From a virus (lineage: Duplodnaviria; Heunggongvirae; Uroviricota; Caudoviricetes), in IMG/VR virus record IMGVR_UViG_2923296884_000001: a stretch of 39,382 nucleotides of DNA. One strand, 5' to 3'. Position 1 is the stretch's first letter. Each line of letters begins with the position of its first letter. The notes below the pieces were generated by a model. It made no database searches. It worked only from the letters and a program-made list of their open reading frames with translations, and was not told the origin of the DNA. Positions 1 to 39,382 of this stretch are shown here, piece by piece. The position numbers and the translations under genes are program-made.

Positions 1-1293
<1,293 letters not shown>

Positions 1294-5627: not shown

Positions 5628-5791
5628 TCACCCTGGTGTGCTTTGAGCACATCGAAGATCTGGTGGCGGATATTGCCGCCATTTTTAACTGGTCGCCCGC
5701 CGAAATCTTCATGATGACGCCCGGCGAAGTGGTTAGCTGGCGTGAGCGGGCGGCACTTCGCAGCGGGAATGCAGATAATGAAGACTCTTGA
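5555..5791 (+). CDS. E': E' extension (-1 frame) of the E+E' frameshift product; true junction lies upstream, about 5525-5555
   Basis: -1 frame ORF overlapping the 3' end of E and the 5' end of T; an A7 run at 5523-5529 sits where the -1 frame opens (stop at 5522-5524 in that frame). Confidence 0.65.
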   Translation: MRCGCKFYERARLWREERAGDGSVITLVCFEHIEDLVADIAAIFNWSPAEIFMMTPGEVVSWRERAALRSGNADNEDS

Positions 5792-8585
5792 CATCCGGGT
5801 CGCTTTCAGCGCCGTTGACAGGCTGACCCGGCCTGCCGAAAACGCCCGCCGCCTGATGGGGCAGTTTGGTGACTCCATCCAGCGAACGCAGGGGGCGATC
5901 AAAAATCTCGAGCGTCAGGCGCGTTCATTTGAGCGCGCCCGTGACGCTGTCAGTAAAGCGGATGCGGGTATCGTGAAAGCACGACGCCAGCTTAACGCCC
6001 TTAATCAGTTACAACGCACGGGTACAGTGCTCAGCGAAAAACAACAAAAGCTGATGCAGCAGTTAAGCACCCGGCTTGAACGCCTGAATGAATCGCGCAC
6101 ACGGGAAATTCAGAAAATGCGGGAACTTGGCGGAGAGCTGAAACGCCACGGCATTTCCCTGACAGGCAGCGATAACACCATCCAGCAGGCCATCAGACGC
6201 ACCGAACAGTACAACAACCAGCTTGAACGCGAACGGCAGGCGCTTGCGCGTGTAACGCGGGCGCGTGAGCGGTATTCGCGCGCGCAGGAAACCGCGGGAA
6301 AACTGAAAACAGGTGGTGCGCTGGCAATTGGTGCTGCAGCGGCTGGCGGCTATGCTGCCGGGCGTTTTTTGCAGCCTGCGATCGGGTTCGGCAAAGAGAT
6401 GTCCCGCGTTCAGGCACTGACGCGAATCGACAAAAACAGCCCGCAGTTTAAGGCGCTGCGTGAGCAGGCGTTAAAACTTGGTTCTGAAACACAGTTTACT
6501 GCGAGTGATGCCGCCAGTGGGCAGAGCTTTCTGGCAATGGCTGGTTTTACTCCGCAGGCCATTCAGGCCGCATTGCCCGGTGTTCTTAATATGGCGCTGG
6601 CAGGTGGCGTCGAACTCGGCGAGACGGCTGATATAGGCTCCAATATCCTCACACAGTTCAACCTGACAGCCGATCAAATGGACCGGGTTGGCGATACGCT
6701 GACAGCAGCATTCACCCGGACCAATACTGATTTACGCGCGCTGGGCGAAACCATGAAGTATACCGGTCCGGTTGCCGCAAAACTTGGTATCAGTCTTGAA
6801 GAAGCGGCGGCCATGGCCGGGATGCTTGCCAATAATGGTCTTCGCGGAAGCGATGCTGGTACGGCCATGCGCGCAAGTCTGTCCCGCCTTGCATCACCGC
6901 CAAAAGCTGCGGCTGATGCACTGAAAGAGCTGGGGGTGTCAGTTGCTGACGCCAGAGGCAAAATGCGCCCGATGGAGGATGTGCTGCTTGATCTCTATAA
7001 GGCGACACAAAAATACGGACAGGTGGACCAGGTTTCCTTCTTCAAGGACATCGCCGGAGAAGAGGCGTTCGTTGGTTTACAGACGCTTGTTGCGGCGGCT
7101 GGTTCAGGAGAGCTGCAAAAACTGACCAGAGAATTGCAGGGGGCAAGGGGAGAGGCCGATCGCGTTGCAAAAGTAATGGCCGATAATCTTGATGGGGACC
7201 TGAAAAATCTCGACAGCGCATGGGAAGGTCTTCGTATTCGCATCAGTGATCTGGTTGACGGTCCGCTGCGTTCTGTCACGCAGTGGCTCACGCGGGTGCT
7301 TGAAAAAATCACCTCGCTGGCGCAGGCCCATCCGGTACTGACGCGCCAGCTACTGATAGCAGGCGGTGCGTTGCTGGCAATGACTGCAACGATTGGCTCG
7401 TTGTCGCTGGTTATTGGGGTGCTTTACGGAAAGCTGGCCACCCTGCGTCTTGGTTTTGACATTCTTACCCGGTCAATGAATGTCGTCCGGGTGTTGCCTG
7501 CGCTGTGGGGAATGCTGACGGGTTCTGTTTCTTTGCTGGGAGGCGCTATCGGGGCGCTGTTCAGTCCGGTTGGATTGATTGCTGCTGCGTTTGTGGCTGC
7601 GGCGGTTCTCATCTGGAAATACTGGGAACCCATTAAGGCGTTTTATGCCGGGGTGTTCAACGGGATTATGGAAAGGCTGACCCCGTTGCGCGAAACCTTT
7701 GAACGGTTTGGTCCTGTTTTTGACGCAATCGGAAGCGGGATCAGCCAGGTGTTTAACTGGTTTAAATCGCTGCTGTCACCGATGGAGTCCAGCAAGGAAA
7801 CGCTGGATAAATGTACCAGTGCTGGCGAGATATTCGGTAACGTTCTTGGTGGCGCGTTACAGCTTGTTCTGACGCCTGCAAAAATGTTGCTGGATACGCT
7901 GGCGTGGATACTTGAAAAACTCGGTGTTCTTCCGGATGAAGCGGAAAGGGCGAGAAAGAAAATCGAAGACGCACAGCGTGCGGCCATTCTTCAGGACAAG
8001 GTTACCTTGCTTCAGGGGGACCTGGCGAAAATCAATCCGCCGAAGCCTGTGGAAAATGGCAATGGCACCGGAGGTGATAACCCCAAAGACAATAAACCGC
8101 TCACAGACAGCAATACCGGGACGCTGCGCAGACTCAGCAAAATTGCTGATAACACAGGTAAGCTGGTTGAGGAGACGAAAAAACGCATTGGCCCCGGCGA
8201 TATTGTCTTTAAAAACCTGCCCCGAGCACTTGCTGTTCGTGGGGAGTGGCAGGAGCGGAAGATTGCGCAGGTCAGTAAGCCTGCCCCCGCAATTAATATC
8301 ACACCCGTGGTCCCGGCTCCGCTGCCTCCGGCGCTGGTCCCTGTTGTTGCGGCCAGCTCCCGCCCGGTGGCGGAGGCCATACGATCTCCAGTGGCATCAG
8401 TTCCTGTAACTTCCCGTAACCGGGAGCCTGTTGCCTCCGGATTTGGTGGTGAAATTCATGTTCATCTGCATAACGTTGTTACGCAGAATCCCCGCGAACT
8501 GGCGAAACTGGTCGGTGAAATGGTCAGGGCAGAAATGGAACGGCGTGCCCGTGCCGGGCGTGGCAGTTTTTACGATAAAGATTGA
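5769..8585 (+). CDS. T: tail tape-measure protein
   Basis: About 940-aa ORF with coiled-coil N-terminal half, Gly/Ala-rich hydrophobic segments and a Pro-rich C-terminus, in the P2 gpT position; start (5742, 5769 or 5778) overlaps E'. Confidence 0.9.
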   Translation: MQIMKTLDIRVAFSAVDRLTRPAENARRLMGQFGDSIQRTQGAIKNLERQARSFERARDAVSKADAGIVKARRQLNALNQLQRTGTVLSEKQQKLMQQLSTRLERLNESRTREIQKMRELGGELKRHGISLTGSDNTIQQAIRRTEQYNNQLERERQALARVTRARERYSRAQETAGKLKTGGALAIGAAAAGGYAAGRFLQPAIGFGKEMSRVQALTRIDKNSPQFKALREQALKLGSETQFTASDAASGQSFLAMAGFTPQAIQAALPGVLNMALAGGVELGETADIGSNILTQFNLTADQMDRVGDTLTAAFTRTNTDLRALGETMKYTGPVAAKLGISLEEAAAMAGMLANNGLRGSDAGTAMRASLSRLASPPKAAADALKELGVSVADARGKMRPMEDVLLDLYKATQKYGQVDQVSFFKDIAGEEAFVGLQTLVAAAGSGELQKLTRELQGARGEADRVAKVMADNLDGDLKNLDSAWEGLRIRISDLVDGPLRSVTQWLTRVLEKITSLAQAHPVLTRQLLIAGGALLAMTATIGSLSLVIGVLYGKLATLRLGFDILTRSMNVVRVLPALWGMLTGSVSLLGGAIGALFSPVGLIAAAFVAAAVLIWKYWEPIKAFYAGVFNGIMERLTPLRETFERFGPVFDAIGSGISQVFNWFKSLLSPMESSKETLDKCTSAGEIFGNVLGGALQLVLTPAKMLLDTLAWILEKLGVLPDEAERARKKIEDAQRAAILQDKVTLLQGDLAKINPPKPVENGNGTGGDNPKDNKPLTDSNTGTLRRLSKIADNTGKLVEETKKRIGPGDIVFKNLPRALAVRGEWQERKIAQVSKPAPAINITPVVPAPLPPALVPVVAASSRPVAEAIRSPVASVPVTSRNREPVASGFGGEIHVHLHNVVTQNPRELAKLVGEMVRAEMERRARAGRGSFYDKD

Positions 8586-8591
8586 GGAGTC

Positions 8592-9086
8592 ATGGCCATG
8601 ATGATGATCTATGGCATGTTTGTTTTTGAGCTGCGCACATTGCCGCATCAGCAGTTACAGCAAAACAAAAGCTGGCGGCATGTGAAAAATGAACGCGTTA
8701 ATCGTTCAGCAAGCTGGCAGTATATCGGCGCAGGTGATGATCGCATCGTGCTTTCCGGCGTGCTTTATCCTGAAATTACAGGTGGCGAAGTGTCGCTTTC
8801 GTTGCTGACCACGCAGGCATATACAGGACGCCCCTGGCCTCTGATTGATGGTGTCGGGCAGATTTACGGCATGTATGTACTGACTGAAACGAATACGACC
8901 CGTTCCGAGTTTGATCGCTACGGTAAGGCGAAAAAGATAGAATTTTCACTGACTCTTGAACGCTGTGATGAGGATTTGCGGGAGCGCCTGCAATCCTCAT
9001 CGTTCAGTGATATGCTGTCCGGCTTCAAAGATAAGGTCACATCATCCCTTAACAGCGCGGCCAGCTCCGTTAAAGGGCTGTTTTGA
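8592..9086 (+). CDS. U: tail protein U
   Basis: 164-aa ORF immediately after T with similarity to P2 gpU (MFVFELRTLPHQ... vs P2 MFVFMRQTLPHQ...). Confidence 0.9.
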   Translation: MAMMMIYGMFVFELRTLPHQQLQQNKSWRHVKNERVNRSASWQYIGAGDDRIVLSGVLYPEITGGEVSLSLLTTQAYTGRPWPLIDGVGQIYGMYVLTETNTTRSEFDRYGKAKKIEFSLTLERCDEDLRERLQSSSFSDMLSGFKDKVTSSLNSAASSVKGLF

Positions 9087-9093
9087 TTAACGC

Positions 9094-9123
9094 AAAACCG
9101 CTAATGGTCAGATTAGCGGTTTT
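9094..9123. terminator. palindromic hairpin between convergent U and invertase genes (bidirectional terminator candidate)
   Basis: AAAACCGCTAAT-ggtcag-ATTAGCGGTTTT perfect 12-bp inverted repeat, A-run on one side and T-run on the other; overlaps the invertase stop codon. Confidence 0.5.
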
Positions 9124-9712
9124 CATTTTCCTGAGTCTGCCTGGTTGTTTCTTCAGCCTGTATATCGCCTACAGGGTGATAACGATAAATCGTCGATATG
9201 CCGATGTCGTAAATGATCGCCAGTTGTTTCCTGTCATGACCGTTTTTAATCAGCCTCGCTATTTGCTCGTGTTGTTCTTTTGTCAACTTCGGGCGACGTC
9301 CGCCAATGCGTCCTTGTGCGCGTGCTGCTGCCAGCCCGGCCAGTGTACGCTCTACAATTAATTCACGTTCCATTTCGGCTAAAGCCCCCATGACGTGAAA
9401 AAAGAAACGCCCCATGGGTGTTGATGTGTCAATGCTGTCCGTCAGACTACGGAAATTAACACCTTTTTCCCGCAATTCCTCAATAAGCGTGATCAGGTGT
9501 TTCATACTTCTGCCCAGTCTGTCCAGCTTCCAGACAACCAGCGTATCTCCTTCTGATAGCGTTCTGAGCAGTTTTTTCAATCCCGGTCTGGTTGATTTCG
9601 TTCCGCTGATTTTATCTTCAAAAATCAGTTCACATCCTGCGCAGTTCAGTGCATTGCGTTGTAAATCCGTGTTCTGGTCGTTTGTTGACACACGAATATA
9701 GCCAATTTGCAT
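9113..9712 (-). CDS. serine-recombinase DNA invertase (Hin/Gin/Cin/Pin family)
   Basis: Translation from the ATG at 9712, MQIGYIRVSTNDQNTDLQRNAL..., carries the catalytic serine (GYIRVSTNDQ) and a C-terminal HTH; lies right next to an inverted-repeat-flanked tail-fibre segment. Confidence 0.93.
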   Translation of the reverse strand: MQIGYIRVSTNDQNTDLQRNALNCAGCELIFEDKISGTKSTRPGLKKLLRTLSEGDTLVVWKLDRLGRSMKHLITLIEELREKGVNFRSLTDSIDTSTPMGRFFFHVMGALAEMERELIVERTLAGLAAARAQGRIGGRRPKLTKEQHEQIARLIKNGHDRKQLAIIYDIGISTIYRYHPVGDIQAEETTRQTQENENR

Positions 9713-9726
9713 AAAAAACATCCTCT

Positions 9727-10245
9727 TTGTTTCGTGAAAAATACAGAGTTGGTATAGGTAGGGATAAAAACGAAAACGTTGGTTTAGGAGAAGGCTCGGC
9801 GCTACCCGTTGGTGTGCCTGTTCCGTGGCCCACTGCCACACCGCCAGCAGGCTGGTTACAGTGCAACGGAGCTACGTTCACCAAAGAACAATATCCTGTT
9901 CTGGCCAGAGTCTACCCGACCCTCCGTCTTCCCGATTTGCGCGGTGAGTTTATCCGTGGATGGGACGGTGGTCGCAAGGTTGATACCGGGCGTACGGTAC
10001 TTTCATTTCAGGAAGGGACTATCGTATCCGGTTTTGATGATAATAATACCGGAGATATCAGTTCGCTCGGCTCTACACAATACGGATTTGGTGACGCTTT
10101 AACCTCTAATCAACTGGGGGTCATAAATGGCAAAAAGTGGATATTTGATGCATCCTCTAAAGGTGCACAAAGATATGACTGGTGGGCTTATGTATCAGCT
10201 CGCCCCCGCAATATCGCATTTAACTATATCGTGAGGGCGGCGTGA
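9727..10245 (+). CDS. alternative tail-fibre C-terminal cassette (Hv'), promoterless in the current orientation
   Basis: Opens inside the left inverted repeat with no plausible start of its own (ORF-track start is a TTG); ends ...RPRNIAFNYIVRAA, matching the conserved P2-type fibre C-terminus. Confidence 0.8.
   Translation: MFREKYRVGIGRDKNENVGLGEGSALPVGVPVPWPTATPPAGWLQCNGATFTKEQYPVLARVYPTLRLPDLRGEFIRGWDGGRKVDTGRTVLSFQEGTIVSGFDDNNTGDISSLGSTQYGFGDALTSNQLGVINGKKWIFDASSKGAQRYDWWAYVSARPRNIAFNYIVRAA
9765..9790. other. gix/hix-like crossover site (left)
   Basis: Reverse complement TTCTCCTAAACCAACGTTTTCGTTTT shares its first 17 nt with the right-hand site; resembles the 26-bp gix architecture with AAACC half-sites. 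Confidence 0.5.
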
Positions 10246-10251
10246 TACCGT

Positions 10252-10866
10252 TCAACTGGCAAGTGCCAGTGGTGCTTCCGGCCAGATGATTTCAGGTGCC
10301 GTGCTGATATCCAGTGCGTTCAGCTCGTCGATATAATCCAGCACGGCGTTCAGTTTTGCCGTTTCTTCTGGTGTCAGACTGCGACCAGCACGCAGTTTGA
10401 GGTTGATAAGATCGACGGACGCCATCGCCTGTTTCACCCGTTGCTGGCGTTGCTGTCTGGCAACCTCCAGTTCTGCGGTTCGCTGCCGTTCAGTATCGGT
10501 TACCCACGCCTCACCGTTCCAGGTATCCCATGGCGTGGCTGGCTGTTTTGTGGTGGTGTCCGCCGGGTAATCACCCGGTTGGGTAATCAGAACGGGGTTA
10601 CCGTTCTCCGTGCTGTATACCGTCTCGCCGCGGTGATCAGGCACATGCTCCCACCCGTTCAGCGTGGCAGTCCGGCAAACCACGTAACCCGAAATTGCCT
10701 CCGGCGGTGCATCGGCGCACGAATGTGCCGGAGTACCCACCCCAAGGGCGAGATACTCCACAGAGGATGAGGTGTATTCCCGGGTTTCCTCGTCATAGTG
10801 ATATACAGTGATATCGCCCGCTACAGTGGCGATACCGTTTTCATCCAGAACTGCAGTGTTACTCAT
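10252..10866 (-). CDS. tail fibre assembly chaperone (Tfa / P2 gpG-like)
   Basis: 204-aa ORF translationally coupled (TAATG) to the upstream fibre C-terminal ORF; variable N-terminal half and conserved C-terminal half typical of Tfa proteins. Confidence 0.85.
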   Translation of the reverse strand: MSNTAVLDENGIATVAGDITVYHYDEETREYTSSSVEYLALGVGTPAHSCADAPPEAISGYVVCRTATLNGWEHVPDHRGETVYSTENGNPVLITQPGDYPADTTTKQPATPWDTWNGEAWVTDTERQRTAELEVARQQRQQRVKQAMASVDLINLKLRAGRSLTPEETAKLNAVLDYIDELNALDISTAPEIIWPEAPLALAS

Positions 10867-11108
10867 TAAACTGCCCTCACAATGTAATTAAGTGCAATGC
10901 TACGGGGTCTGACAGTGATACCCTTCGCATACCCGCTTCTGATAGAGGTCAGAATAGTAGCCTGCATACCATTGTCTGACATTGCTATGACAGGATCGCT
11001 GAATGTTGTCCCGTCCGGCATTTTAAAGCTGCCCTCACGAAGGTCTGTAATGGAATCTTCATTGTTGAATCCCATGCCGACTATCCCGAGGTTCCCGTAG
11101 TGTCCTGG
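10866..11108 (-). pseudogene. distal part of the currently fused fibre C-terminus, in a different frame from H (frameshifted end)
   Basis: This frame is open from 11108 and ends ...RPRSIALNYIVRAV, the conserved fibre terminus, while the H frame stops at 11081; the two frames overlap at 11081-11108. Confidence 0.5.
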
Positions 11109-12688
11109 TTATAATAATCCAGCATTGCTGTTCTTAACAGCGTTGCCCCTTGTGCGGACAGCAACTTACGTCCTGTATCAACTTTGCGCCCGTCGTCCCA
11201 TCCACGGATAAACTCACCGCGTAAATCGGGAAGACGGAGGGTCGGGTAGGCTCTGGCCAGAACAGGATATTGTTCTTTTGTAAAGGCGCGCCCGTCGCAC
11301 TTTAACCAGCCTGCTGGCGGTGTGGCGGTGGGCCACGGAACAGGCACACCAACGGGTAGCGCCGAGCCTTCTCCTAAACCAAGGTAATTGAGGACATCTT
11401 TTATACTGCCCTTAGCGATAATAGCGCGACCAATAGCTGTAAGGGTTGCCAGCGCTGCGCGGTCTGCTCCGGTAAAATAAGGCAACCGATCTGCTGCAGT
11501 GGCAAGTCCTGCCAGAGCAGTGAGCGTGGCATCTGCCGGTTGTTTTCCGTTTGCCAGATCGTATGCAGCCTTGACCGCTTTCGGTGTGGCGGCCAGTATT
11601 TCAGACGTGCTGTTGGTGGCGCTACTGAGTTGAACAAGGCCTTTTCGTGCCGTAGTCGCATCCTGAGCGGTATATTTCCCGTTAGCCAGGTCATATGCAG
11701 CCTTAACCGCTTTCGGTGTTGCGGCCAGCGTTTCAGAGGTGCTGTTGGTGGCGCTACTGAGTTGAACAAGGCCTTTTCGTGCCGTAGTCGCATCCTGAGC
11801 GGTATATTTCCCGTTAGCCAGGTCATATGCAGCCTTAACCGCTTTCGGTGTTGCGGCCAGCGTTTCAGAGGTGCTGTTGGTGGCGCTACTGAGTTGAACA
11901 AGGCCTTTTCGTGCCGTAGTCGCATCCTGAGCGGTATATTTCCCGTTAGCCAGGTCATATGCAGCCTTAACCGCTTTCGGTGTGGCGGCCAGCGTTTCAG
12001 AGGTGCTGTTGGTGGCGCTACTGAGTTGAACAAGGCCTTTTCGTGCCGTAGTCGCATCCTGAGCGGTATATTTCCCGTTAGCCAGGTCATATGCATCCTT
12101 AACCGCTTTCGGTGTTGCGGCCAGCGTTTCAGAGGTGCTGTTGGTGGCGCTGCTAAGTTGAACAAAGCCTTTTGCGGTCAGCGAGGCGTCCGGGTGACGT
12201 CGTGACTGCTCGTGCTCTGATATTTTATCATCCACATATTTGCGGGTTGCCAGAACCACAGACGGGTCGATTTTCAGCGTGATGGCTTCGGTGTTCGTGA
12301 CAACCAGAATCATGCGGATAGTCTGGGTGCGTCCACTGCCTTCCTGCAACTGCGGTTTGTACGTTTCCGGGCAGTTTGCCACCGCAATGAGTACACCTTT
12401 ATCATCATAAAGACCAATCTCACGGATCCAGAATCCTCCCTCGCTTTCAGGGATGATTTGCTCCGCAATAATCTGGCTCTGATTGTTAGGGTCAACACTC
12501 AGAAGATTCAGCGGTGCAATGCGTTTCTGGTTAATCAGTTTTGTTTGTGCAGGGTCTGGTGTTGGTAACACACCATTTGCATCACCAACGGCCATTCGCG
12601 TCAGATTCAGCTTACTGCCGAGCATCGTCGCGTTAGCCAGTCGTGCCGCGCCCTGATTAGTCAGAATGGCGTAGTATTTCACTGTCAT
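11081..12688 (-). CDS. H: tail fibre protein H (constant part plus currently fused variable end)
   Basis: 535-aa ORF with a P2 gpH-like N-terminus, five tandem 44-aa repeats, and a C-terminal region that enters the right inverted repeat. Confidence 0.9.
   Translation of the reverse strand: MTVKYYAILTNQGAARLANATMLGSKLNLTRMAVGDANGVLPTPDPAQTKLINQKRIAPLNLLSVDPNNQSQIIAEQIIPESEGGFWIREIGLYDDKGVLIAVANCPETYKPQLQEGSGRTQTIRMILVVTNTEAITLKIDPSVVLATRKYVDDKISEHEQSRRHPDASLTAKGFVQLSSATNSTSETLAATPKAVKDAYDLANGKYTAQDATTARKGLVQLSSATNSTSETLAATPKAVKAAYDLANGKYTAQDATTARKGLVQLSSATNSTSETLAATPKAVKAAYDLANGKYTAQDATTARKGLVQLSSATNSTSETLAATPKAVKAAYDLANGKYTAQDATTARKGLVQLSSATNSTSEILAATPKAVKAAYDLANGKQPADATLTALAGLATAADRLPYFTGADRAALATLTAIGRAIIAKGSIKDVLNYLGLGEGSALPVGVPVPWPTATPPAGWLKCDGRAFTKEQYPVLARAYPTLRLPDLRGEFIRGWDDGRKVDTGRKLLSAQGATLLRTAMLDYYNQDTTGTSG
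11369..11394. other. gix/hix-like crossover site (right)
   Basis: TTCTCCTAAACCAAGGTAATTGAGGA: imperfect dyad of 12-bp half-sites around a central AA, at the outer edge of the right inverted repeat. Confidence 0.5.
11510..12170 (-). repeat. five tandem copies of a 132-bp (44-aa) coding repeat inside H
   Basis: Near-identical 132-bp units at about 11640, 11772, 11904 and 12036 plus a more diverged flanking copy; encode LVQLSSATNSTSETLAATPKAVKAAYDLANGKYTAQDATTARKG. Confidence 0.85.
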
Positions 12689-13293
12689 GCGTTTACTCTC
12701 AGATTATCAATTAAATGAATGGCCGGGGCAGGGAAATAATCCCCTTCGACAATAATGGACTCCGGGGTGTAGGGATAAACCGTCAGGGCGTCGCCGTAAT
12801 AGCATCCCGTACCAACGAAAATCTTTCCGTTCACACTCAGGCTGATCGCCAGCCCCGTCAGATGGCGACTTACTGGTTTTGCATCCGCAATAAGGCGCTC
12901 AAGTTCCTGATACATTTCATCGGTGATGCCCTGATCAAGTACTCCGACAACAATGCGAAATGTCCCAGGCTCCTCATTGAGTTGCCACCACTCCTTTACT
13001 TCAATCAGGTAGCCGAGAGGCTCCACGGCTCTTCGCAGTGCGCTGATGGTCCCTTTGTGTCGGTGTATCAGCCATGCATCACGAATTACCTGTCGCTTTG
13101 TCTCTTCCGGCCAGTTGCGATCCCAGCGGTCAACGGAAAACGCCCAGGCGAGATAAGGCAGCAGATGCACCGGGCAGGTGTCCGGCGACCACAACGTGTT
13201 GAGGTCTACCGGAATGTCTGTAATGCGTGTTCCGACGGCTTCGGCACAACGCATGAAATTGCTGGCTGATGGTGGTAACAACGAATTACTCAT
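12685..13293 (-). CDS. I: baseplate protein I
   Basis: P2 gpI-like ORF; start taken as the ATG at 13293 (MSNSLL..., SD AAGGTGGA); overlaps the J stop and the H start as in P2. Confidence 0.85.
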   Translation of the reverse strand: MSNSLLPPSASNFMRCAEAVGTRITDIPVDLNTLWSPDTCPVHLLPYLAWAFSVDRWDRNWPEETKRQVIRDAWLIHRHKGTISALRRAVEPLGYLIEVKEWWQLNEEPGTFRIVVGVLDQGITDEMYQELERLIADAKPVSRHLTGLAISLSVNGKIFVGTGCYYGDALTVYPYTPESIIVEGDYFPAPAIHLIDNLRVNA

Positions 13294-14182
13294 TGCGTCC
13301 ACCTTCGCTGATGGTGAATGACTCACAGCGCGCCGCCTGTATGTCGCTGATGGCCATATTCTGTGTGGGTTCGATTATCTCCACGCGTTGCACACCGTGC
13401 ACATGCAGTGCGGCAGCAATGGCGGACAACGCCACGTCCTGACCGATAAGCCCCTGCTCAGCCAGCCACTTCCTGAACGACGATTCAGCCGCCGCCAGAA
13501 TAGGTTCGGATTCCGGGCCGGGGTAAAAGTACAGTTTTGCATTCAGCCGCCATGTCACGATTCTGGCGCTCTGTACAGTAAGGCGGTCGGCCACCGGGCG
13601 GGTATCCTCTGCATTCAGAACGGCGCGAACGGTATTAAGCAACGCCTCCGTTGCTGTGCCGTCGCCTTCAGTGGACAGGATGGAAACCGTCACATTTGCC
13701 GGAGACGGACTGATAGCCCGCGCATCACGCACCAGACCGCTGGCGCTGCGGGCAAAATACTCGTATGCACCTGACGGGCCAGCAACACTCAGGCCATCGT
13801 ACGCCCGCTGCGCCCGCAGTCTCAGCGAGGTGTCACTTTCCATCACTGCGTCGGTGGTATCTGTTGCCGGAGTGATGGTCAGGCGCTTTGTGTTCATATT
13901 GCCCGCGAGGTTGTCCAGGTCTGTCCCGGCGCTGTGGCTTAACATGCAGGCGCGTGCCCCCTCATTGACCCGCTGGCGTAACAGCATTTCACGAAAAGAC
14001 ATGGTTTGAGCGATAACGTTCAGGGGTTCCGATTCCAGCTCCAGCGCGGCGGAGACGGCTTCACGCTGTTCGGCAGGATAGGACGCAATCATCATGGCCT
14101 TTGTGTCAGCCAGAATTGCCTCAAAATCAGGCTTCGCGATGATGGCGGGTTCCGGTAACTGGGAAAGGTCAACAGCAGGCAT
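13286..14182 (-). CDS. J: baseplate wedge protein J
   Basis: 298-aa ORF with P2 gpJ similarity and conserved position. Confidence 0.9.
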   Translation of the reverse strand: MPAVDLSQLPEPAIIAKPDFEAILADTKAMMIASYPAEQREAVSAALELESEPLNVIAQTMSFREMLLRQRVNEGARACMLSHSAGTDLDNLAGNMNTKRLTITPATDTTDAVMESDTSLRLRAQRAYDGLSVAGPSGAYEYFARSASGLVRDARAISPSPANVTVSILSTEGDGTATEALLNTVRAVLNAEDTRPVADRLTVQSARIVTWRLNAKLYFYPGPESEPILAAAESSFRKWLAEQGLIGQDVALSAIAAALHVHGVQRVEIIEPTQNMAISDIQAARCESFTISEGGRNE

Positions 14183-16229: not shown

Positions 16230-18107
16230 TTATGCTGCGGGATTATTGATTTCCAGCACCAGGCTGCCGATATCGACGCCATACGTTGCATTTTTGGTAA
16301 TATCCGTCAGCGTCAGTGCATTCAGCCCCAGTGTCAGACTGTCTTTTATGACCTGGAATGCCGGGCCAACCAGTCCATTCAGTTTCGGAGTAACCGTGGC
16401 ACTGCCGGCGGTGAACACCAGCTCCAGCGTCTGCCAGTCGTTACTGTAATTCCCGAACTCGCCCAACTTTGTGTTTCCGGCTTTCTTGTGATGCATCAGA
16501 TTCAGTTTGCCGTCTGTGGTCTGGGTGAAGAACGACATCAGGAACGGGTTACCAGTCCCGGTCATCGCCACGACGTCAGGTAACGCTACATCGGTATACA
16601 GATAAATTCCCAGACCGAACTGGTTGTTGGTCAGTGCGCCTGACAGTCGAAACTTACAGCTCAGTCTGCCACCCCGTGTCAGCAGGGAGACTGCGTCATC
16701 CACCGGGCGCGTCAGGGACCAGGCTTTATTGCTCTGCTTGGCGATCTTAAATACACCATCTGACAACTGAATTCCGCCATTCTTAATGCTCCAGCCCTGC
16801 GCAGCAGCATCTCCGGCTGTCGGCAACAGGGAGATTGTGCGTACGGATGCATCTTCAGACGGCCCCGATGGCGTGTCGCCGCCGGGCGAGGGTTTGATTT
16901 CCGGTGCCTTACCACTGATGAAGGCTGAGGTGCGCCCGGCTGCGTTCAGAATAGCGGTTGCCATACGATCCGGAATAATGCTCCTGCGCGCCCATGAACT
17001 GAAATGTGTCGGGCGGTTTGATGATACCCAATTACCATTACTACGGGATTGCGCGCCGTAATAACCTGCATCAGCAATATCCGGGTCTTCTGCCGGTAAG
17101 TTGGTGGGCGTGTTGTTGCCGTTACCGTCGGTCATGAACGGCACAAAGAAAACGTTGTCGCTCTCCCTGTTTTTGTACGCGCCGTAGACGGAGTCATACT
17201 GTGTGCCGTATGTGTTTTTCCAGTAATACGTCGTGTCGCCACAAATCCACGGTACAACTGCAGCACTGCCGCCATGGCACTGCGCGTTAAATCCGGAAAG
17301 GTCAGTACGGAACTGCTTCAGCATGGCCGTGAACAGGTCCGGTTGCTGTGCGTAGGTGGCAGCGCTCATGTCAAATTCGCCCTGCATCCAGCACACCGCC
17401 AGCAACACATTTTTCGGGTTCTTCTGTAATGCCGCTTTGGTGCGTGCGATCAGGTCCTGATATAACGGTTTACCCACACCCCAGCGTGCCGAATCCTGGC
17501 TGGCCCCCGTGTCCGCACTGAATGTCCCCTCCGCGCCCTGGGTGAATGCCGAACCACCACGACAGCATGGTACCAGCAGGATCCCCGCGTTATTCGGGAT
17601 ATACGGAAGCAGTTTTTTGGCAATATGTAAGCCCTGGCCGACACAGCCGTACTGCCCTTTGCTCAGGTCTGCCTTCGGATGATTCAGTGCGCTCATATCC
17701 TGAACATCATGCAGGCAGTGGTCTGCCGGAATGATGTCGTTAAATGCGCATGCTTTACCACCGGGAGTCACTGTGTTGCGACGGGCCAGTTGCTTAATGC
17801 GTGGGTGGGGCGCATCGTAAGAATCCGGCAGCGGCATTCCCTCACCATATGACATGGCATTGGATTGACCAGCAAGTACCACCACGTAATACCACTCCGG
17901 CACGCTGCCGTGCTGGGGGGAATCAGGTGAGATGTCTGTAGTGCCATCGGCCACCATTGCCTGCATTAGATACCACGGGGTGCCGGGTTCGTAGGCAACC
18001 CGCGTCTCCCCCTGAAGATGCCACCCTTTCGCAAGATGTTCATTCACCTTTTGAGTCAGTTCAGCCTGTGTCATGGCTGTAATCAGTGCAAAGTTCTTAC
18101 TGGTCAT
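16230..18107 (-). CDS. SASA-domain carbohydrate esterase (sialate O-acetylesterase-like, NanS-p-like), 625 aa
   Basis: Contains VVVLAGQSNAMSYGEG (GQSN motif) and WMQGEFD, typical of the SASA esterase family, plus a ~300-aa C-terminal domain; start overlaps the o-spanin stop (ATGA). Confidence 0.75.
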   Translation of the reverse strand: MTSKNFALITAMTQAELTQKVNEHLAKGWHLQGETRVAYEPGTPWYLMQAMVADGTTDISPDSPQHGSVPEWYYVVVLAGQSNAMSYGEGMPLPDSYDAPHPRIKQLARRNTVTPGGKACAFNDIIPADHCLHDVQDMSALNHPKADLSKGQYGCVGQGLHIAKKLLPYIPNNAGILLVPCCRGGSAFTQGAEGTFSADTGASQDSARWGVGKPLYQDLIARTKAALQKNPKNVLLAVCWMQGEFDMSAATYAQQPDLFTAMLKQFRTDLSGFNAQCHGGSAAVVPWICGDTTYYWKNTYGTQYDSVYGAYKNRESDNVFFVPFMTDGNGNNTPTNLPAEDPDIADAGYYGAQSRSNGNWVSSNRPTHFSSWARRSIIPDRMATAILNAAGRTSAFISGKAPEIKPSPGGDTPSGPSEDASVRTISLLPTAGDAAAQGWSIKNGGIQLSDGVFKIAKQSNKAWSLTRPVDDAVSLLTRGGRLSCKFRLSGALTNNQFGLGIYLYTDVALPDVVAMTGTGNPFLMSFFTQTTDGKLNLMHHKKAGNTKLGEFGNYSNDWQTLELVFTAGSATVTPKLNGLVGPAFQVIKDSLTLGLNALTLTDITKNATYGVDIGSLVLEINNPAA

Positions 18108-33615: not shown

Positions 33616-34446
33616 TTACTTCACCGGAACAAACGGAACAGCGGTGTTACTGGTCATGTATTGCGGTAGCGTGCCGTTCCATTTGTTAATCGCTTCCAGC
33701 TCCATAACGCCGGGATTCTGGCGCAGAGCTTCACCGCGTAAACGAATGGCGTCGGCTTCAGCCTGGGCTTTTGTGCGAATGGCATCGGCTTGTCCGGCAG
33801 CTTCTGCGCGCAGCATGTTGGCTTCAGCTTCGCGTTGCTTGACTTCCTGTTCACGTTGCAGGGTTTTCTGGTTTGCCGTGACTTTGGCATTAATGCTGTC
33901 GATAACGGTTGGCGGGTATTCCGGCTTACCCACATAAGAGAGGCTCATTACCTGAATGCCGATAGGTGTCATTTCTGCCTGAATGTCTTTAAGTGCTGAA
34001 TCCAGCAGTTCAGACTTGCCACCGTCGATAAATTTATCGGTGGTCATTTTGCTGGCCAGTCGGTTGAGTGCGTCGGCGATCTTCTGGCGCAGGTCAGTGT
34101 CGGTAATGTCGTCCACGCCTTTGCGGTAGGTCTGAAACACCGTGGTAACTTTGGATGGATCAACTTTGTAGGCCACGCCGATGTGATAGCCGATGGTTGT
34201 GCCGTCACTCATCTGGAAGTTGAACGGCTCATCGTAAGTCTTCATTTGTTTGAAAGTCGGGAAGATGTAAACCTCTGTATTCCAGCCTGTCCAGTAGCGG
34301 CCAACGCCAACTACTTCGCCGACGCCTTTGTCGTCGCCCAGTTTGTTGACTTTGATTCCCACATTACCTGGCTCAACGCGATCGCAACCAACCAGCAGGA
34401 TGGCGGCAAAAAGCGGGAGAATCTGAAAGAGTTTGAATTTCTTCAT
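33616..34446 (-). CDS. SPFH/band-7 domain lipoprotein (276 aa)
   Basis: Signal peptide with lipobox LLVGC, then a region reading as an SPFH/band-7 domain, then a coiled-coil Ala/Glu/Gln-rich C-terminus; SD AAGGAA; overlaps the upstream gene (ATGA). Confidence 0.85.
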   Translation of the reverse strand: MKKFKLFQILPLFAAILLVGCDRVEPGNVGIKVNKLGDDKGVGEVVGVGRYWTGWNTEVYIFPTFKQMKTYDEPFNFQMSDGTTIGYHIGVAYKVDPSKVTTVFQTYRKGVDDITDTDLRQKIADALNRLASKMTTDKFIDGGKSELLDSALKDIQAEMTPIGIQVMSLSYVGKPEYPPTVIDSINAKVTANQKTLQREQEVKQREAEANMLRAEAAGQADAIRTKAQAEADAIRLRGEALRQNPGVMELEAINKWNGTLPQYMTSNTAVPFVPVK

Positions 34447-38320: not shown

Positions 38321-38389
38321 CTCTACACATTGAGCGAATTACATATCGCAAGGAGTGTTTAGTTAATTTATCCGTTGGAGGGGCTAATC

Positions 38390-39382
38390 ATGTCGATTAA
38401 GCAACTCAAAGACGGACGTTATCAGGTCGATGTCAGACCGCAGGGGGCGGAAGGAAAGCGGATTCGAAAAATCTTTGCCCTGAAATCAAAGGCTCAGGAG
38501 TTTGAGAAGTATGTGTTACAGAACTTTCATGACAAGCCATGGCAGGCTAAGCCAGCTGATCAGCGGCGATTATCAGAGCTGCTTGATGCGTGGTGGATGC
38601 TTGATGGTCGTAATCAGGCTTACGGGGATAGCTACAGGGTTAGGCTAGGGAAGGTTGTTCGTGAAATGGGAGATCCTCGCGCCAGTCAGATGACGCGAAA
38701 ATTTATGCTTGAATATCGGTCAGAGAAATTACAGGCCGGATTAATGCCGTCCAGTATTAATCGTGACTTATGCGTACTGTCTACCATGTTCACGGTGCTG
38801 ATTGAAGCTGAGGTCTTTCACAACGCGAACCCTGTACGCGGTATACGAAAACTGAAAGTTCAGAACACAGAGATGGCCTTTCTTTCTGATGATGAGATTG
38901 AACGGCTTCTTGAGCGACTGGAGGGTGATGCGCGTCGTGTTGCCATTCTGTGTCTTTCTACTGGTGCCCGATGGAGTGAAGCATCGGAACTACGTGGAGA
39001 GCATATCGTTGGCAACCGGGTGACGTTCTTTAACACCAAAAACGGAAAATCCCGTTCGGTTCCTGTGGCGGATTCGGTCGTGCCTCTGATTAAAACCCGT
39101 CGAACGGGGTTATTGTATCAGGTTGATTATCTGAAGTTCCGGGAGATTCTTCAGGAGGTGAAACCGGATTTGCCGAAGGGGCAGGCTACGCATGTCATGC
39201 GTCATACATTTGCCACACACTTTATGATGAATGGCGGAAATATTGTTACGTTGCAACGAATCCTGGGGCACGCAACGATTCAGCAAACAATGACGTACGC
39301 TCATTTTTCGCCGGACTTCTTACAGGACGCGATCAACTTTAATCCGCTGGCTGAAAGTGTCCATAAACTGTCCATCGATTAG
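38390..39382 (+). CDS. int: tyrosine integrase (P2 Int family)
   Basis: Start refined to the ATG at 38390 (SD GGAGG); C-terminal catalytic region with ...HVMRHTFATHF...LGHATIQQTMTYAH; stop TAG at 39380-39382 is the last triplet of the window. Confidence 0.92.
   Translation: MSIKQLKDGRYQVDVRPQGAEGKRIRKIFALKSKAQEFEKYVLQNFHDKPWQAKPADQRRLSELLDAWWMLDGRNQAYGDSYRVRLGKVVREMGDPRASQMTRKFMLEYRSEKLQAGLMPSSINRDLCVLSTMFTVLIEAEVFHNANPVRGIRKLKVQNTEMAFLSDDEIERLLERLEGDARRVAILCLSTGARWSEASELRGEHIVGNRVTFFNTKNGKSRSVPVADSVVPLIKTRRTGLLYQVDYLKFREILQEVKPDLPKGQATHVMRHTFATHFMMNGGNIVTLQRILGHATIQQTMTYAHFSPDFLQDAINFNPLAESVHKLSID

What the first reader, a model, noticed from the sequence alone, without database searches (positions are those of the whole stretch)
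9113..11394. Hin/Gin-family invertase with an invertible tail-fibre C-terminus switch
A serine invertase gene abuts a ~1.6-kb segment bounded by ~200-bp inverted repeats that encode the same fibre peptide on both strands, with gix-like 26-bp sites at the outer edges. Inversion would swap the C-terminus of fibre protein H between two cassettes, as in the Mu G and P1 C segments. Canonical P2 does not carry this.
Basis: partly seen in the sequence, partly recalled or inferred. Interest (0 to 1): 0.55.

Follow-up and report, generated by a model that had tools for sequence, protein, structure and literature searches.

The report
Gin-type invertible tail-fibre switch in prophage
This is an ordinary, well-known kind of phage DNA switch: a Gin/Cin-like enzyme flips a 1.6-kb segment so that the tail fibre gets one of two alternative tips. 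Nearly identical copies sit in hundreds of E. coli genomes in both orientations.

Summary
A 199-aa serine invertase (9113-9712, minus strand; about 80% identical to Mu Gin, catalytic Ser9 present) lies 54 bp from a 1.6-kb segment (9781-11380). The segment is bounded by 229-nt inverted repeats (90% complementary). At their outer ends are two 26-bp cix/gix-like sites with the same AA core, in inverted orientation. In-silico inversion fuses the constant fibre part in frame to the silent cassette, giving a 590-aa fibre. E. coli U15A carries the same prophage with the segment flipped: 9 differences in 3,310 columns. Junctions of each type occur in 206 (flipped) and 326 (as here) complete E. coli genomes. 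The host element is a P88-like (Xuanwuvirus) prophage beside serS, not P2, and invertases are standard in that group. Inversion of such P2-like prophage segments has been shown experimentally in E. coli (PMC4272514). Already known; low interest.

The parts
9113..9712 (-). Serine DNA invertase gene (199 aa), Gin/Cin/Pin/Hin family, outside the invertible segment
   Evidence: Pfam Resolvase 2.3e-51 and HTH_7 1.4e-12. PHROG 125 'DNA invertase' 8e-99. PDB Gin 4M6F/3UJ3 at E 6e-91, about 80% identity, with Ser9, Arg7 and the DRLGRS motif conserved. Same 600-nt CDS (WP_001375851.1) is annotated in L002-L004 and L006.
9623..9694 (-). Putative Fis-dependent recombinational enhancer (CDS nt 19-90), by homology to the annotated P1 cin enhancer
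   Evidence: The P1 record annotates an 'enhancer of Cin-mediated C-segment inversion' at cin nt 19-90. The window is 78% identical there against 64% over the rest of the gene. The blocks GTRTCAACAAAYGA and GCGCAGGATGTGA are shared by all six invertases compared. This evidence is confounded by coding constraint.
9767..9792 (-). Invertase-proximal 26-bp crossover site (TTCTCCTAAACC AA CGTTTTCGTTTT); core dinucleotide at 9779-9780
   Evidence: The inner half-site matches P1 cix (TTCTCTTAAACC) at 11 of 12 positions with the same AA core. The outer half resembles the D108/Mu gix outer half CGTTTTGGATAA.
9781..10245 (+). Silent alternative fibre C-terminal cassette (SvC, 154 aa, intact, no start of its own); its first 224 nt lie in the left repeat arm (9776-10004)
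   Evidence: Pfam Collar 7e-16. PHROG tail collar fibre, C-terminal part. In-silico flip gives an in-frame 590-aa fibre ending NYIVRAA*. The same fusion is annotated as a 1773-nt tail fibre CDS in E. coli U15A.
10252..10866 (-). The only tail-fibre assembly (tfa) gene, inside the invertible segment; its ATG overlaps the SvA stop codon (TAATG)
   Evidence: Pfam Caudo_TAP 5.9e-28. PHROG 105 'tail fiber assembly' 2.6e-88. Annotated as tail fiber assembly protein in all relatives.
10866..11380 (-). Cassette now joined to the fibre (SvA). It carries a 1-nt deletion in a G run (CCC on the + strand at 11085-11087; relatives have four), which causes a premature TAG at 11081-11083
   Evidence: Alignment with four relatives and with U15A. 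Restoring the G gives a 607-aa fibre ending NYIVRAV*. 595 of 597 E. coli records holding this 71-nt stretch fall in the 95-99% identity band and every one listed has 98.6%, as the four-G allele gives; only 1 matches the window exactly.
11157..11385 (-). Right arm of the 229-nt inverted repeat (collar-domain coding part of SvA)
   Evidence: pair I1.
11369..11394 (+). Fibre-proximal 26-bp crossover site (TTCTCCTAAACC AA GGTAATTGAGGA); core at 11381-11382
   Evidence: The outer half GGTAATTGAGGA is invariant next to the constant fibre part in all eight relatives compared.
11383..12688 (-). Constant N-terminal part of the tail fibre (gpH-like), with 5 x 132-nt tandem repeats; the ORF as it stands is 11081-12688 (535 aa)
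   Evidence: Pfam Phage_tail_fib 1e-61 and Phage_fiber_2 x5. Repeats, family D1.
9094..9123 (.). Hairpin between the gpU stop (9086) and the invertase stop (9113); terminator-like, separates two convergent transcription units
   Evidence: 12-pair stem with a T-rich tail.

Best explanation
This is a Gin/Cin-type site-specific inversion switch for phage host range, in a P88-like (Xuanwuvirus, P2-related) prophage inserted beside serS. The invertase (9113-9712) binds as dimers to the two 26-bp sites. Together with a Fis-bound enhancer inside the 5' end of its own gene, it forms an invertasome. It cuts both sites at the central AA/TT dinucleotide through Ser9, rotates one pair of subunits by 180 degrees and religates. 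This reverses the segment 9781-11380. In the orientation seen here, the constant fibre part is fused to cassette SvA and followed by tfa. In the other orientation it is fused in frame to cassette SvC, whose distal 80 or so residues (the receptor-binding tip) are unrelated. A lysogen population would therefore release phage with two different fibre tips. Shown here: the invertase's family membership and catalytic residues; the sites and their orientation; the in-frame fusion; both orientations in near-identical prophages; and a breakpoint confined to the centre of the 26-bp site. Inferred from the family: Fis and enhancer dependence, the cleavage chemistry, and the host-range consequence. In this copy the SvA cassette has a 1-nt deletion, so only the flipped state would give a full-length fibre, unless the deletion is a sequencing error.
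For: The invertase is about 80% identical to Mu Gin, with Ser9 and a wild-type Met at the position that reads Val in the PDB Gin chains. It has Resolvase and HTH_7 domains. The repeat is 229 nt at 90% complementarity. The two sites share TTCTCCTAAACCAA, found only twice in the window in inverted orientation against 0.17 expected, and are close to P1 cixR TTCTCTTAAACC AA GGTATTGGATAA. The flip gives an in-frame 590-aa fibre. The window with the segment flipped in silico matches E. coli U15A with 9 differences in 3,310 columns; unflipped, it shows 718. Flipped-type junctions occur in 206 complete E. coli genomes and unflipped-type junctions in 326. The inner half-site has two alleles, TTCTCCT and TTCCCCC. 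The allele travels with the cassette while the outer half-site stays with the flank (L004 against L006), which places the exchange within a few bases of the AA core. The enhancer region is 78% identical to the enhancer annotated in P1 cin. Inversion of P2-like prophage fibre segments, both two-site and three-site versions, was shown by sequencing and PCR in clonal E. coli cultures (PMC4272514).
Against: There is no direct evidence of inversion in the strain this window comes from; it is a single assembly in a single orientation. The outer half-sites are poor matches to the consensus (7-8 of 12 by my own comparison with hix/gix/cix). No sigma-70-like promoter for the invertase passed the scan. 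The expressed cassette is frameshifted, so the prophage may be decaying. The only tfa gene ends up antisense to the fibre operon after inversion, and no promoter that would serve it was found.
Confidence: 0.9

Rival explanations
1. The switch machinery is intact but one output is dead. The 1-nt deletion in SvA is real, so this orientation makes a fibre truncated by 72 residues that lacks the tip and the conserved C-terminal motif. The element would then toggle between a defective and a functional fibre, or the prophage is on its way to becoming cryptic.
For: There are three Gs here where L002-L005 and U15A have four. The resulting ORF stops at 11081, and a 69-aa out-of-frame remnant carries the normal C-terminus. 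Only 1 of 597 E. coli records shares the allele, and that record is another prophage with several pseudogenes.
Against: A single-base loss in a homopolymer is the commonest assembly error. Everything else across the 3.3 kb compared is identical to U15A except one 8-substitution patch. The rest of the prophage tail and head genes read as intact ORFs.
Confidence: 0.35
2. The segment inverts by RecA-dependent homologous recombination between the 229-nt repeats, and the invertase and the 26-bp sites are irrelevant or inactive.
For: 229 nt at 90% identity is a possible substrate for homologous recombination. An 8-substitution patch 6-36 nt inside the crossover centre differs between the window and U15A, and both arms of the window carry the same allele there. 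This suggests gene conversion between arms.
Against: Half-site alleles only 5-7 nt from the core move with the cassette, while the outer half-sites never do. No hybrid arms were seen among the 23 arm-specific differences in the window-U15A comparison. The sites are conserved next to quite different flanks and invertase alleles (L001, L007, L008). Experimentally the family inverts by the invertase (established knowledge of Gin, Cin, Pin and Hin).
Confidence: 0.04
3. In the lysogen the switch mainly serves the host. One orientation would produce a fibre-derived protein that blocks adsorption of other phages, as reported for PinQ-driven inversion of the e14 P segment producing StfE2.
For: The only support is the precedent in NAR 2025, PMC12529663, plus the abundance of such modules in E. 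coli chromosomes.
Against: This element looks like a complete P88-like prophage with head, tail, replication and integrase genes. The fibre gene sits inside the late tail operon.
Confidence: 0.04

Closest known systems
Phage P1 C segment / Cin-cix
   Same: The invertase lies outside the segment and is 74% identical at the amino-acid level. The crossover sites sit at the outer ends of long inverted repeats that encode fibre sequence. The inner half-site matches at 11 of 12 positions and the AA core is the same. The enhancer is at the same place in the invertase gene. The fibre has a constant N-terminus and a variable C-terminus.
   Different: The P1 segment is 4.2 kb with about 0.6-kb repeats and holds two tfa genes (U and U'). 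Here the segment is 1.6 kb with 229-nt repeats and one tfa. In P1 cixL overlaps the 3' end of cin, whereas here the site is 54 bp upstream of the invertase start, as in Mu.
Phage Mu / D108 G segment / Gin-gix (also carried by phage P88 itself)
   Same: Gin is the closest solved protein, at about 80% identity. The geometry is the same, with the invertase start about 55 bp from the site. The biological logic, a host-range switch through the S/S' fibre C-termini, is the same.
   Different: Mu, D108 and P88 use gix sites with a GA core (TTCCTGTAAACC GA ...) inside 34-bp repeats, and hold two tfa genes. The window has the P88 backbone (96%) but a different cassette module and a different site type.
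Invertible tail-fibre loci of P2-like prophages in E. coli (EPEC E2348/69; Goldberg et al. 2014, PMC4272514)
   Same: These are the same kind of element in the same species. Two-variant and three-repeat (four-variant, three C-termini) versions were shown to flip in clonal cultures. Relatives L003, L005 and L007 show the three-site version.
   Different: I could not establish whether the EPEC loci are the same allele as this one; coordinates were not found in the text held.
e14 P segment / Pin, Salmonella Hin-hix, p15B Min
   Same: They share the invertase family and 26-bp site architecture. Min and the Shigella B segment are multi-site versions like L003 and L007 (the last point is from established knowledge).
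   Different: Hin flips a promoter, not a coding cassette, and lies inside its segment. The e14 segment has two tfa genes.

Membership tests
Din family of serine DNA invertases (Gin/Cin/Pin/Hin) | Small serine recombinase: N-terminal resolvase catalytic domain plus C-terminal HTH, about 190 aa, with high identity to Gin/Cin | tested here: met
   Pfam Resolvase and HTH_7. 199 aa. E 6e-91 to Gin PDB 4M6F. 74-76% identity to Cin and to D108 Gin by tblastn.
Din family of serine DNA invertases (Gin/Cin/Pin/Hin) | Catalytic serine (Ser9 in Gin) and the conserved Arg/Asp residues of the active site | tested here: met
   IGYIRVSTNDQ and WKLDRLGRSMKHL align without change to Gin.
Din family of serine DNA invertases (Gin/Cin/Pin/Hin) | Two 26-bp imperfectly palindromic sites in inverted orientation with identical central dinucleotides | tested here: met
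   Sites 9767-9792 and 11369-11394, both with an AA core, and an inner half 11 of 12 identical to cix.
Din family of serine DNA invertases (Gin/Cin/Pin/Hin) | Fis-binding recombinational enhancer in cis (within the 5' part of the invertase gene for Gin/Cin/Hin) | tested here: inconclusive
   78% identity to the annotated P1 enhancer against 64% for the rest of the gene. Identical codons among same-residue positions are 9/20 against 37/112. This is suggestive, but the region is coding and Fis binding cannot be tested here.
Din family of serine DNA invertases (Gin/Cin/Pin/Hin) | Actual inversion, with exchange at the core dinucleotide | tested here: met
   This is comparative evidence, not evidence from the source strain. 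U15A equals the window flipped, with 9 differences in 3,310 columns. Inner half-site alleles move with the cassettes and the outer halves do not. Both junction types are common.
Mu G / P1 C-type invertible tail-fibre segment | Constant fibre N-terminus outside the segment, alternative C-terminal cassettes on opposite strands inside it, and in-frame fusion in both orientations | tested here: met
   590-aa fusion in the flipped state and 607 aa in the present state once the 1-nt deletion is repaired. The cassette tips are unrelated.
Mu G / P1 C-type invertible tail-fibre segment | Each cassette followed by its own tail-fibre assembly gene (U and U') | tested here: not met
   Only one tfa (10252-10866). 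Six nt separate the SvC stop from the tfa stop. Mu/D108, P1 and P88 have two. The single-tfa layout is shared by L002-L008.
Xuanwuvirus (P88-like Peduoviridae) prophage | Backbone synteny and identity to P88, with convergent F and V tail operons and an invertase beside gpU | tested here: met
   78% of window 13000-37900 matches P88 at 96.3%. The order gpU, invertase, fibre is the same as in P88. P2 lacks the invertase.

The most novel reading that the evidence does not exclude
The single-tfa layout makes the switch asymmetric. In one state the fibre tip is co-expressed with, and translationally coupled to, its assembly or tip protein Tfa. In the other state tfa is antisense to the fibre operon and has no recognisable promoter. 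The SvC tip might therefore fold without Tfa or depend on Tfa supplied in trans by other prophages. Alternatively, the switch might toggle between a Tfa-capped and an uncapped fibre. No such mode of host-range control is described for Mu or P1.
Probability: 0.12. Interest if true: 0.4.

Novelty: already known. Interest (0 to 1): 0.15.

Why it matters
The main value is for correct annotation. The 535-aa 'fibre', the 69-aa remnant and the 154-aa orphan 'phage tail protein' are parts of one switchable gene. Assemblies of the same prophage will legitimately differ by a 1.6-kb inversion. For phage biology it is one more instance of bet-hedging on host range, in a prophage family common in clinical E. 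coli. Two small open points remain: how a single tfa serves two or three cassettes, and whether the frameshift is real.

Tried and rejected
1. I looked for a promoter that could drive tfa after inversion. The sigma-70 scan of 8900-12900 found nothing near 9700-9800 or inside SvA, and the overall number of promoter-like sites was no higher than in shuffles.

2. A P2 Ogr-type TGT-N12-ACA dyad lies at 9728-9745, between the invertase start and the left site. However, the window holds fewer such dyads than chance predicts (6 against 9.2). The dyad is also absent from L007 and L008, which share the single-tfa layout. I dropped this lead.

3. I considered read-through from the convergent T-U operon as a source of tfa transcripts. 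It is unlikely, because a 12-pair terminator-like hairpin sits at 9094-9123. It also cannot apply to L007 and L008, where the invertase lies at the prophage edge.

4. I tested for enhancer constraint through synonymous conservation. The excess was only weak, and too few independent sequences were available.

5. I tried to link this locus to the EPEC loci of PMC4272514 through its supplementary files, and found nothing.

6. I searched for the SvC tip in the phage collection to see whether it ever has its own tfa. There were only 3 hits, all in the same kind of module.

7. I considered homologous recombination as the inversion mechanism and rejected it on half-site allele linkage.
Full report
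**What is there**

The window is a prophage. Seryl-tRNA synthetase lies at 1-1293 and a tyrosine integrase runs off the right end at 38375-39382. Between them are P2-type head, tail and replication genes. Of window 13000-37900, 78% matches phage P88 (Xuanwuvirus, Peduoviridae) at 96.3% identity.

Around the finding the gene order is:
- tape measure, 5742-8585 (+)
- gpU, 8592-9086 (+)
- a terminator-like hairpin, 9094-9123
- the invertase, 9113-9712 (-)
- the invertible segment
- the tail fibre (-)
- gpI, 12685-13326 (-), and gpJ, 13286-14182 (-)

P88 has the same order of gpU, invertase and fibre. Canonical P2 has H-G followed by a terminator and fun(Z), with no invertase.

**Checking the observation**

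The repeat finder gives one long inverted pair, 9776-10004 and 11157-11385. It is 229 nt long and 90% complementary.

The invertase has Resolvase and HTH_7 domains. It aligns over 183 residues with Mu Gin (PDB 4M6F and 3UJ3, E about 1e-90), with no change in the Ser9 motif IGYIRVSTNDQ or in the DRLGRS motif.

Two 26-bp sites sit at the outer ends of the repeat:
- 11369-11394: TTCTCCTAAACC AA GGTAATTGAGGA
- 9767-9792, read on the minus strand: TTCTCCTAAACC AA CGTTTTCGTTTT

 The shared 14-mer occurs only at these two places in 39 kb, in inverted orientation, even with two mismatches allowed. Chance predicts 0.17 occurrences.

The annotated P1 sites are cixR TTCTCTTAAACC AA GGTATTGGATAA and cixL TTCTCTTAAACC AA GGTTTAGGATTG. 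The D108 and P88 gix sites are TTCCTGTAAACC GA .... The sites here are therefore cix-like in sequence and core. Like cix, they lie at the outer ends of long coding repeats.

**Anatomy of the segment (9781-11380)**

Reading the minus strand from the constant fibre part (12688 down to 11383), the parts are:
- the crossover site
- cassette SvA (11380 down to 10866)
- tfa (10866 down to 10252; its ATG overlaps the SvA stop)
- six bases later, on the plus strand, the end of cassette SvC (9781-10245), which runs up to the invertase-proximal site

The two cassettes are about 92% identical over the first 75 residues, which form the collar domain. After that they are unrelated for about 80-95 residues, and they share only the last motif, RPRxIAxNYIVRA. 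Flipping 9781-11380 in silico fuses the constant part to SvC in frame and gives a 590-aa fibre.

**Evidence that it flips**

E. coli U15A carries the same prophage: the same tape measure, gpU and invertase protein WP_001375851.1. There the fibre is annotated as a 1773-nt CDS, followed by a convergent tfa and an N-terminally 'missing' tail-protein fragment next to the invertase.

The window with its segment reversed at the two AA cores aligns to U15A with 9 differences in 3,310 columns. Unflipped, it shows 718 differences.

A 939-nt probe across the flipped junction is covered at 80% or more in 206 of 5,426 complete E. coli genomes. The equivalent probe for the present orientation is covered in 326.

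The inner half-site exists as two alleles, TTCTCCT and TTCCCCC. In L004 (orientation as here) the TTCTCCT allele sits with SvA next to the fibre, and TTCCCCC sits with SvC next to the invertase. In L006 (flipped) each allele has moved with its cassette, while the outer half-sites GGTAATTGAGGA and CGTTTTCGTTTT stay with their flanks. This confines the exchange to a few bases around the core. That is what a serine invertase does, and it is not what homologous recombination inside a 229-nt repeat would give.

Published work shows directly, by sequencing and PCR of clonal cultures, that such loci in P2-like prophages of E. coli invert. This includes a three-repeat version giving three C-termini (PMC4272514). 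Relatives L003, L005 and L007 have three sites and three cassettes.

**Enhancer**

The P1 record annotates the Cin enhancer at cin nt 19-90. The corresponding stretch here is 9623-9694. It is 78% identical to P1, against 64% for the rest of the gene, and 88% against 70% for the L007 and L008 invertases. Two blocks are shared by all six genes compared. Its near edge is about 86 bp from the nearest crossover centre. The protein keeps a wild-type Met where the PDB Gin chains carry Val. From my own knowledge, that Val is the Fis-independent M114V change, so dependence on Fis is expected. All of this is consistent with a Fis-dependent enhancer but is not proof, because the stretch is coding.

1. 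The cassette now fused to the fibre is frameshifted. The window has three Gs (CCC at 11085-11087 on the plus strand) where L002-L005 and U15A have four. This gives a TAG at 11081-11083, a 535-aa product, and a 69-aa out-of-frame remnant that carries the normal C-terminus. Of 597 E. coli records holding this 71-nt stretch, 595 fall in the 95-99% identity band and every one listed is at 98.6%, as the four-G allele gives. The only exact match is in another, visibly degraded prophage. It may be a homopolymer assembly error or a recent mutation. If real, only the flipped state makes a complete fibre.

2. There is one tfa gene, where Mu/D108, P1 and P88 have two. After inversion tfa is antisense to the fibre operon. 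I found no promoter that would serve it. The layout is shared by all the E. coli relatives I examined, so it evidently works. How it works is open.

3. The window and U15A differ by a patch of 8 substitutions 6-36 nt inside the crossover centre. Both arms of the window carry the same allele there, which looks like gene conversion between arms.

**Comparison and verdict**

The element works like, and is a member of, the Gin/Cin/Pin/Hin inversion systems that switch phage tail-fibre C-termini. It combines a P88 backbone, Mu-like placement of the invertase relative to the site, and P1-like sites and repeat geometry. It departs from the classical G and C segments in having a single tfa.

Nearly identical copies are present, and automatically annotated, in hundreds of E. 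coli genomes. The phenomenon has been shown experimentally in P2-like E. coli prophages. The finding is real and correctly interpreted, but it is already known. Its practical value is in annotation: three ORFs are parts of one switchable gene, and inversions between assemblies are to be expected.

Noticed in passing
window 11081-11087 (fibre gene, minus strand): A 1-nt deletion in a G run truncates the currently expressed fibre at 535 aa instead of 607. Only 1 of 597 E. coli records with this stretch shares the allele.
   Followed up: yes
window 10252-10866, compared with L009 (P1), L010 (D108) and L011 (P88): The invertible segment carries a single tail-fibre assembly gene serving two cassettes (three in L003 and L007). 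After inversion it is antisense to the fibre operon, and no promoter for it was found.
   Followed up: partly
L003 4871-5335; L005 3848-4312; L007 5855-6365: Relatives have a third crossover site and a third C-terminal cassette. These are multi-inversion (Min- or shufflon-like) versions of the same module.
   Followed up: partly
window 9786-9816 against the fibre-proximal junction of L006: A patch of 8 substitutions 6-36 nt inside the crossover centre distinguishes otherwise identical prophages. Two inner half-site alleles (TTCTCCT and TTCCCCC) occur in all combinations among relatives, which suggests gene conversion between repeat arms.
   Followed up: partly
window 11411-12202: Five tandem 132-nt (44-aa, Phage_fiber_2) repeats lie in the fibre shaft. 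Copy number and repeat sequence differ among close relatives (L002-L005).
   Followed up: no
window 16230-18107 (-): A 625-aa protein with DUF1737, a SASA sialate-O-acetylesterase domain and DUF6645 (phrog_143), probably cargo within the P88-like prophage. From my own knowledge it resembles the NanS-p esterases of Stx phages. It probably accounts for the many Stx-converting phage hits to the window, though I did not check which part of the query those hits cover.
   Followed up: no
window 9094-9123: A 12-pair hairpin with T-rich tails lies between the convergent gpU and invertase genes. It looks like a terminator, probably bidirectional: the scan scored the plus strand only, and the minus-strand reading is mine.
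   Followed up: no
window 1-1293 and 38375-39382: serS lies at one end and a tyrosine integrase, cut by the window edge, at the other. The prophage is inserted next to serS. Attachment sites were not looked for.
   Followed up: no
window 33616-34446 (-): An SPFH/Band 7 family protein is encoded in the early region of the prophage.
   Followed up: no
L008 (E. coli MS1494) against hit H169 (E. coli MS1737): Two chicken isolates have almost equal chromosome length and carry a related module at the same coordinate. The flipped-junction probe matched one and the unflipped-junction probe matched the other, suggesting a second near-isogenic pair. The MS1737 locus itself was not fetched.
   Followed up: no
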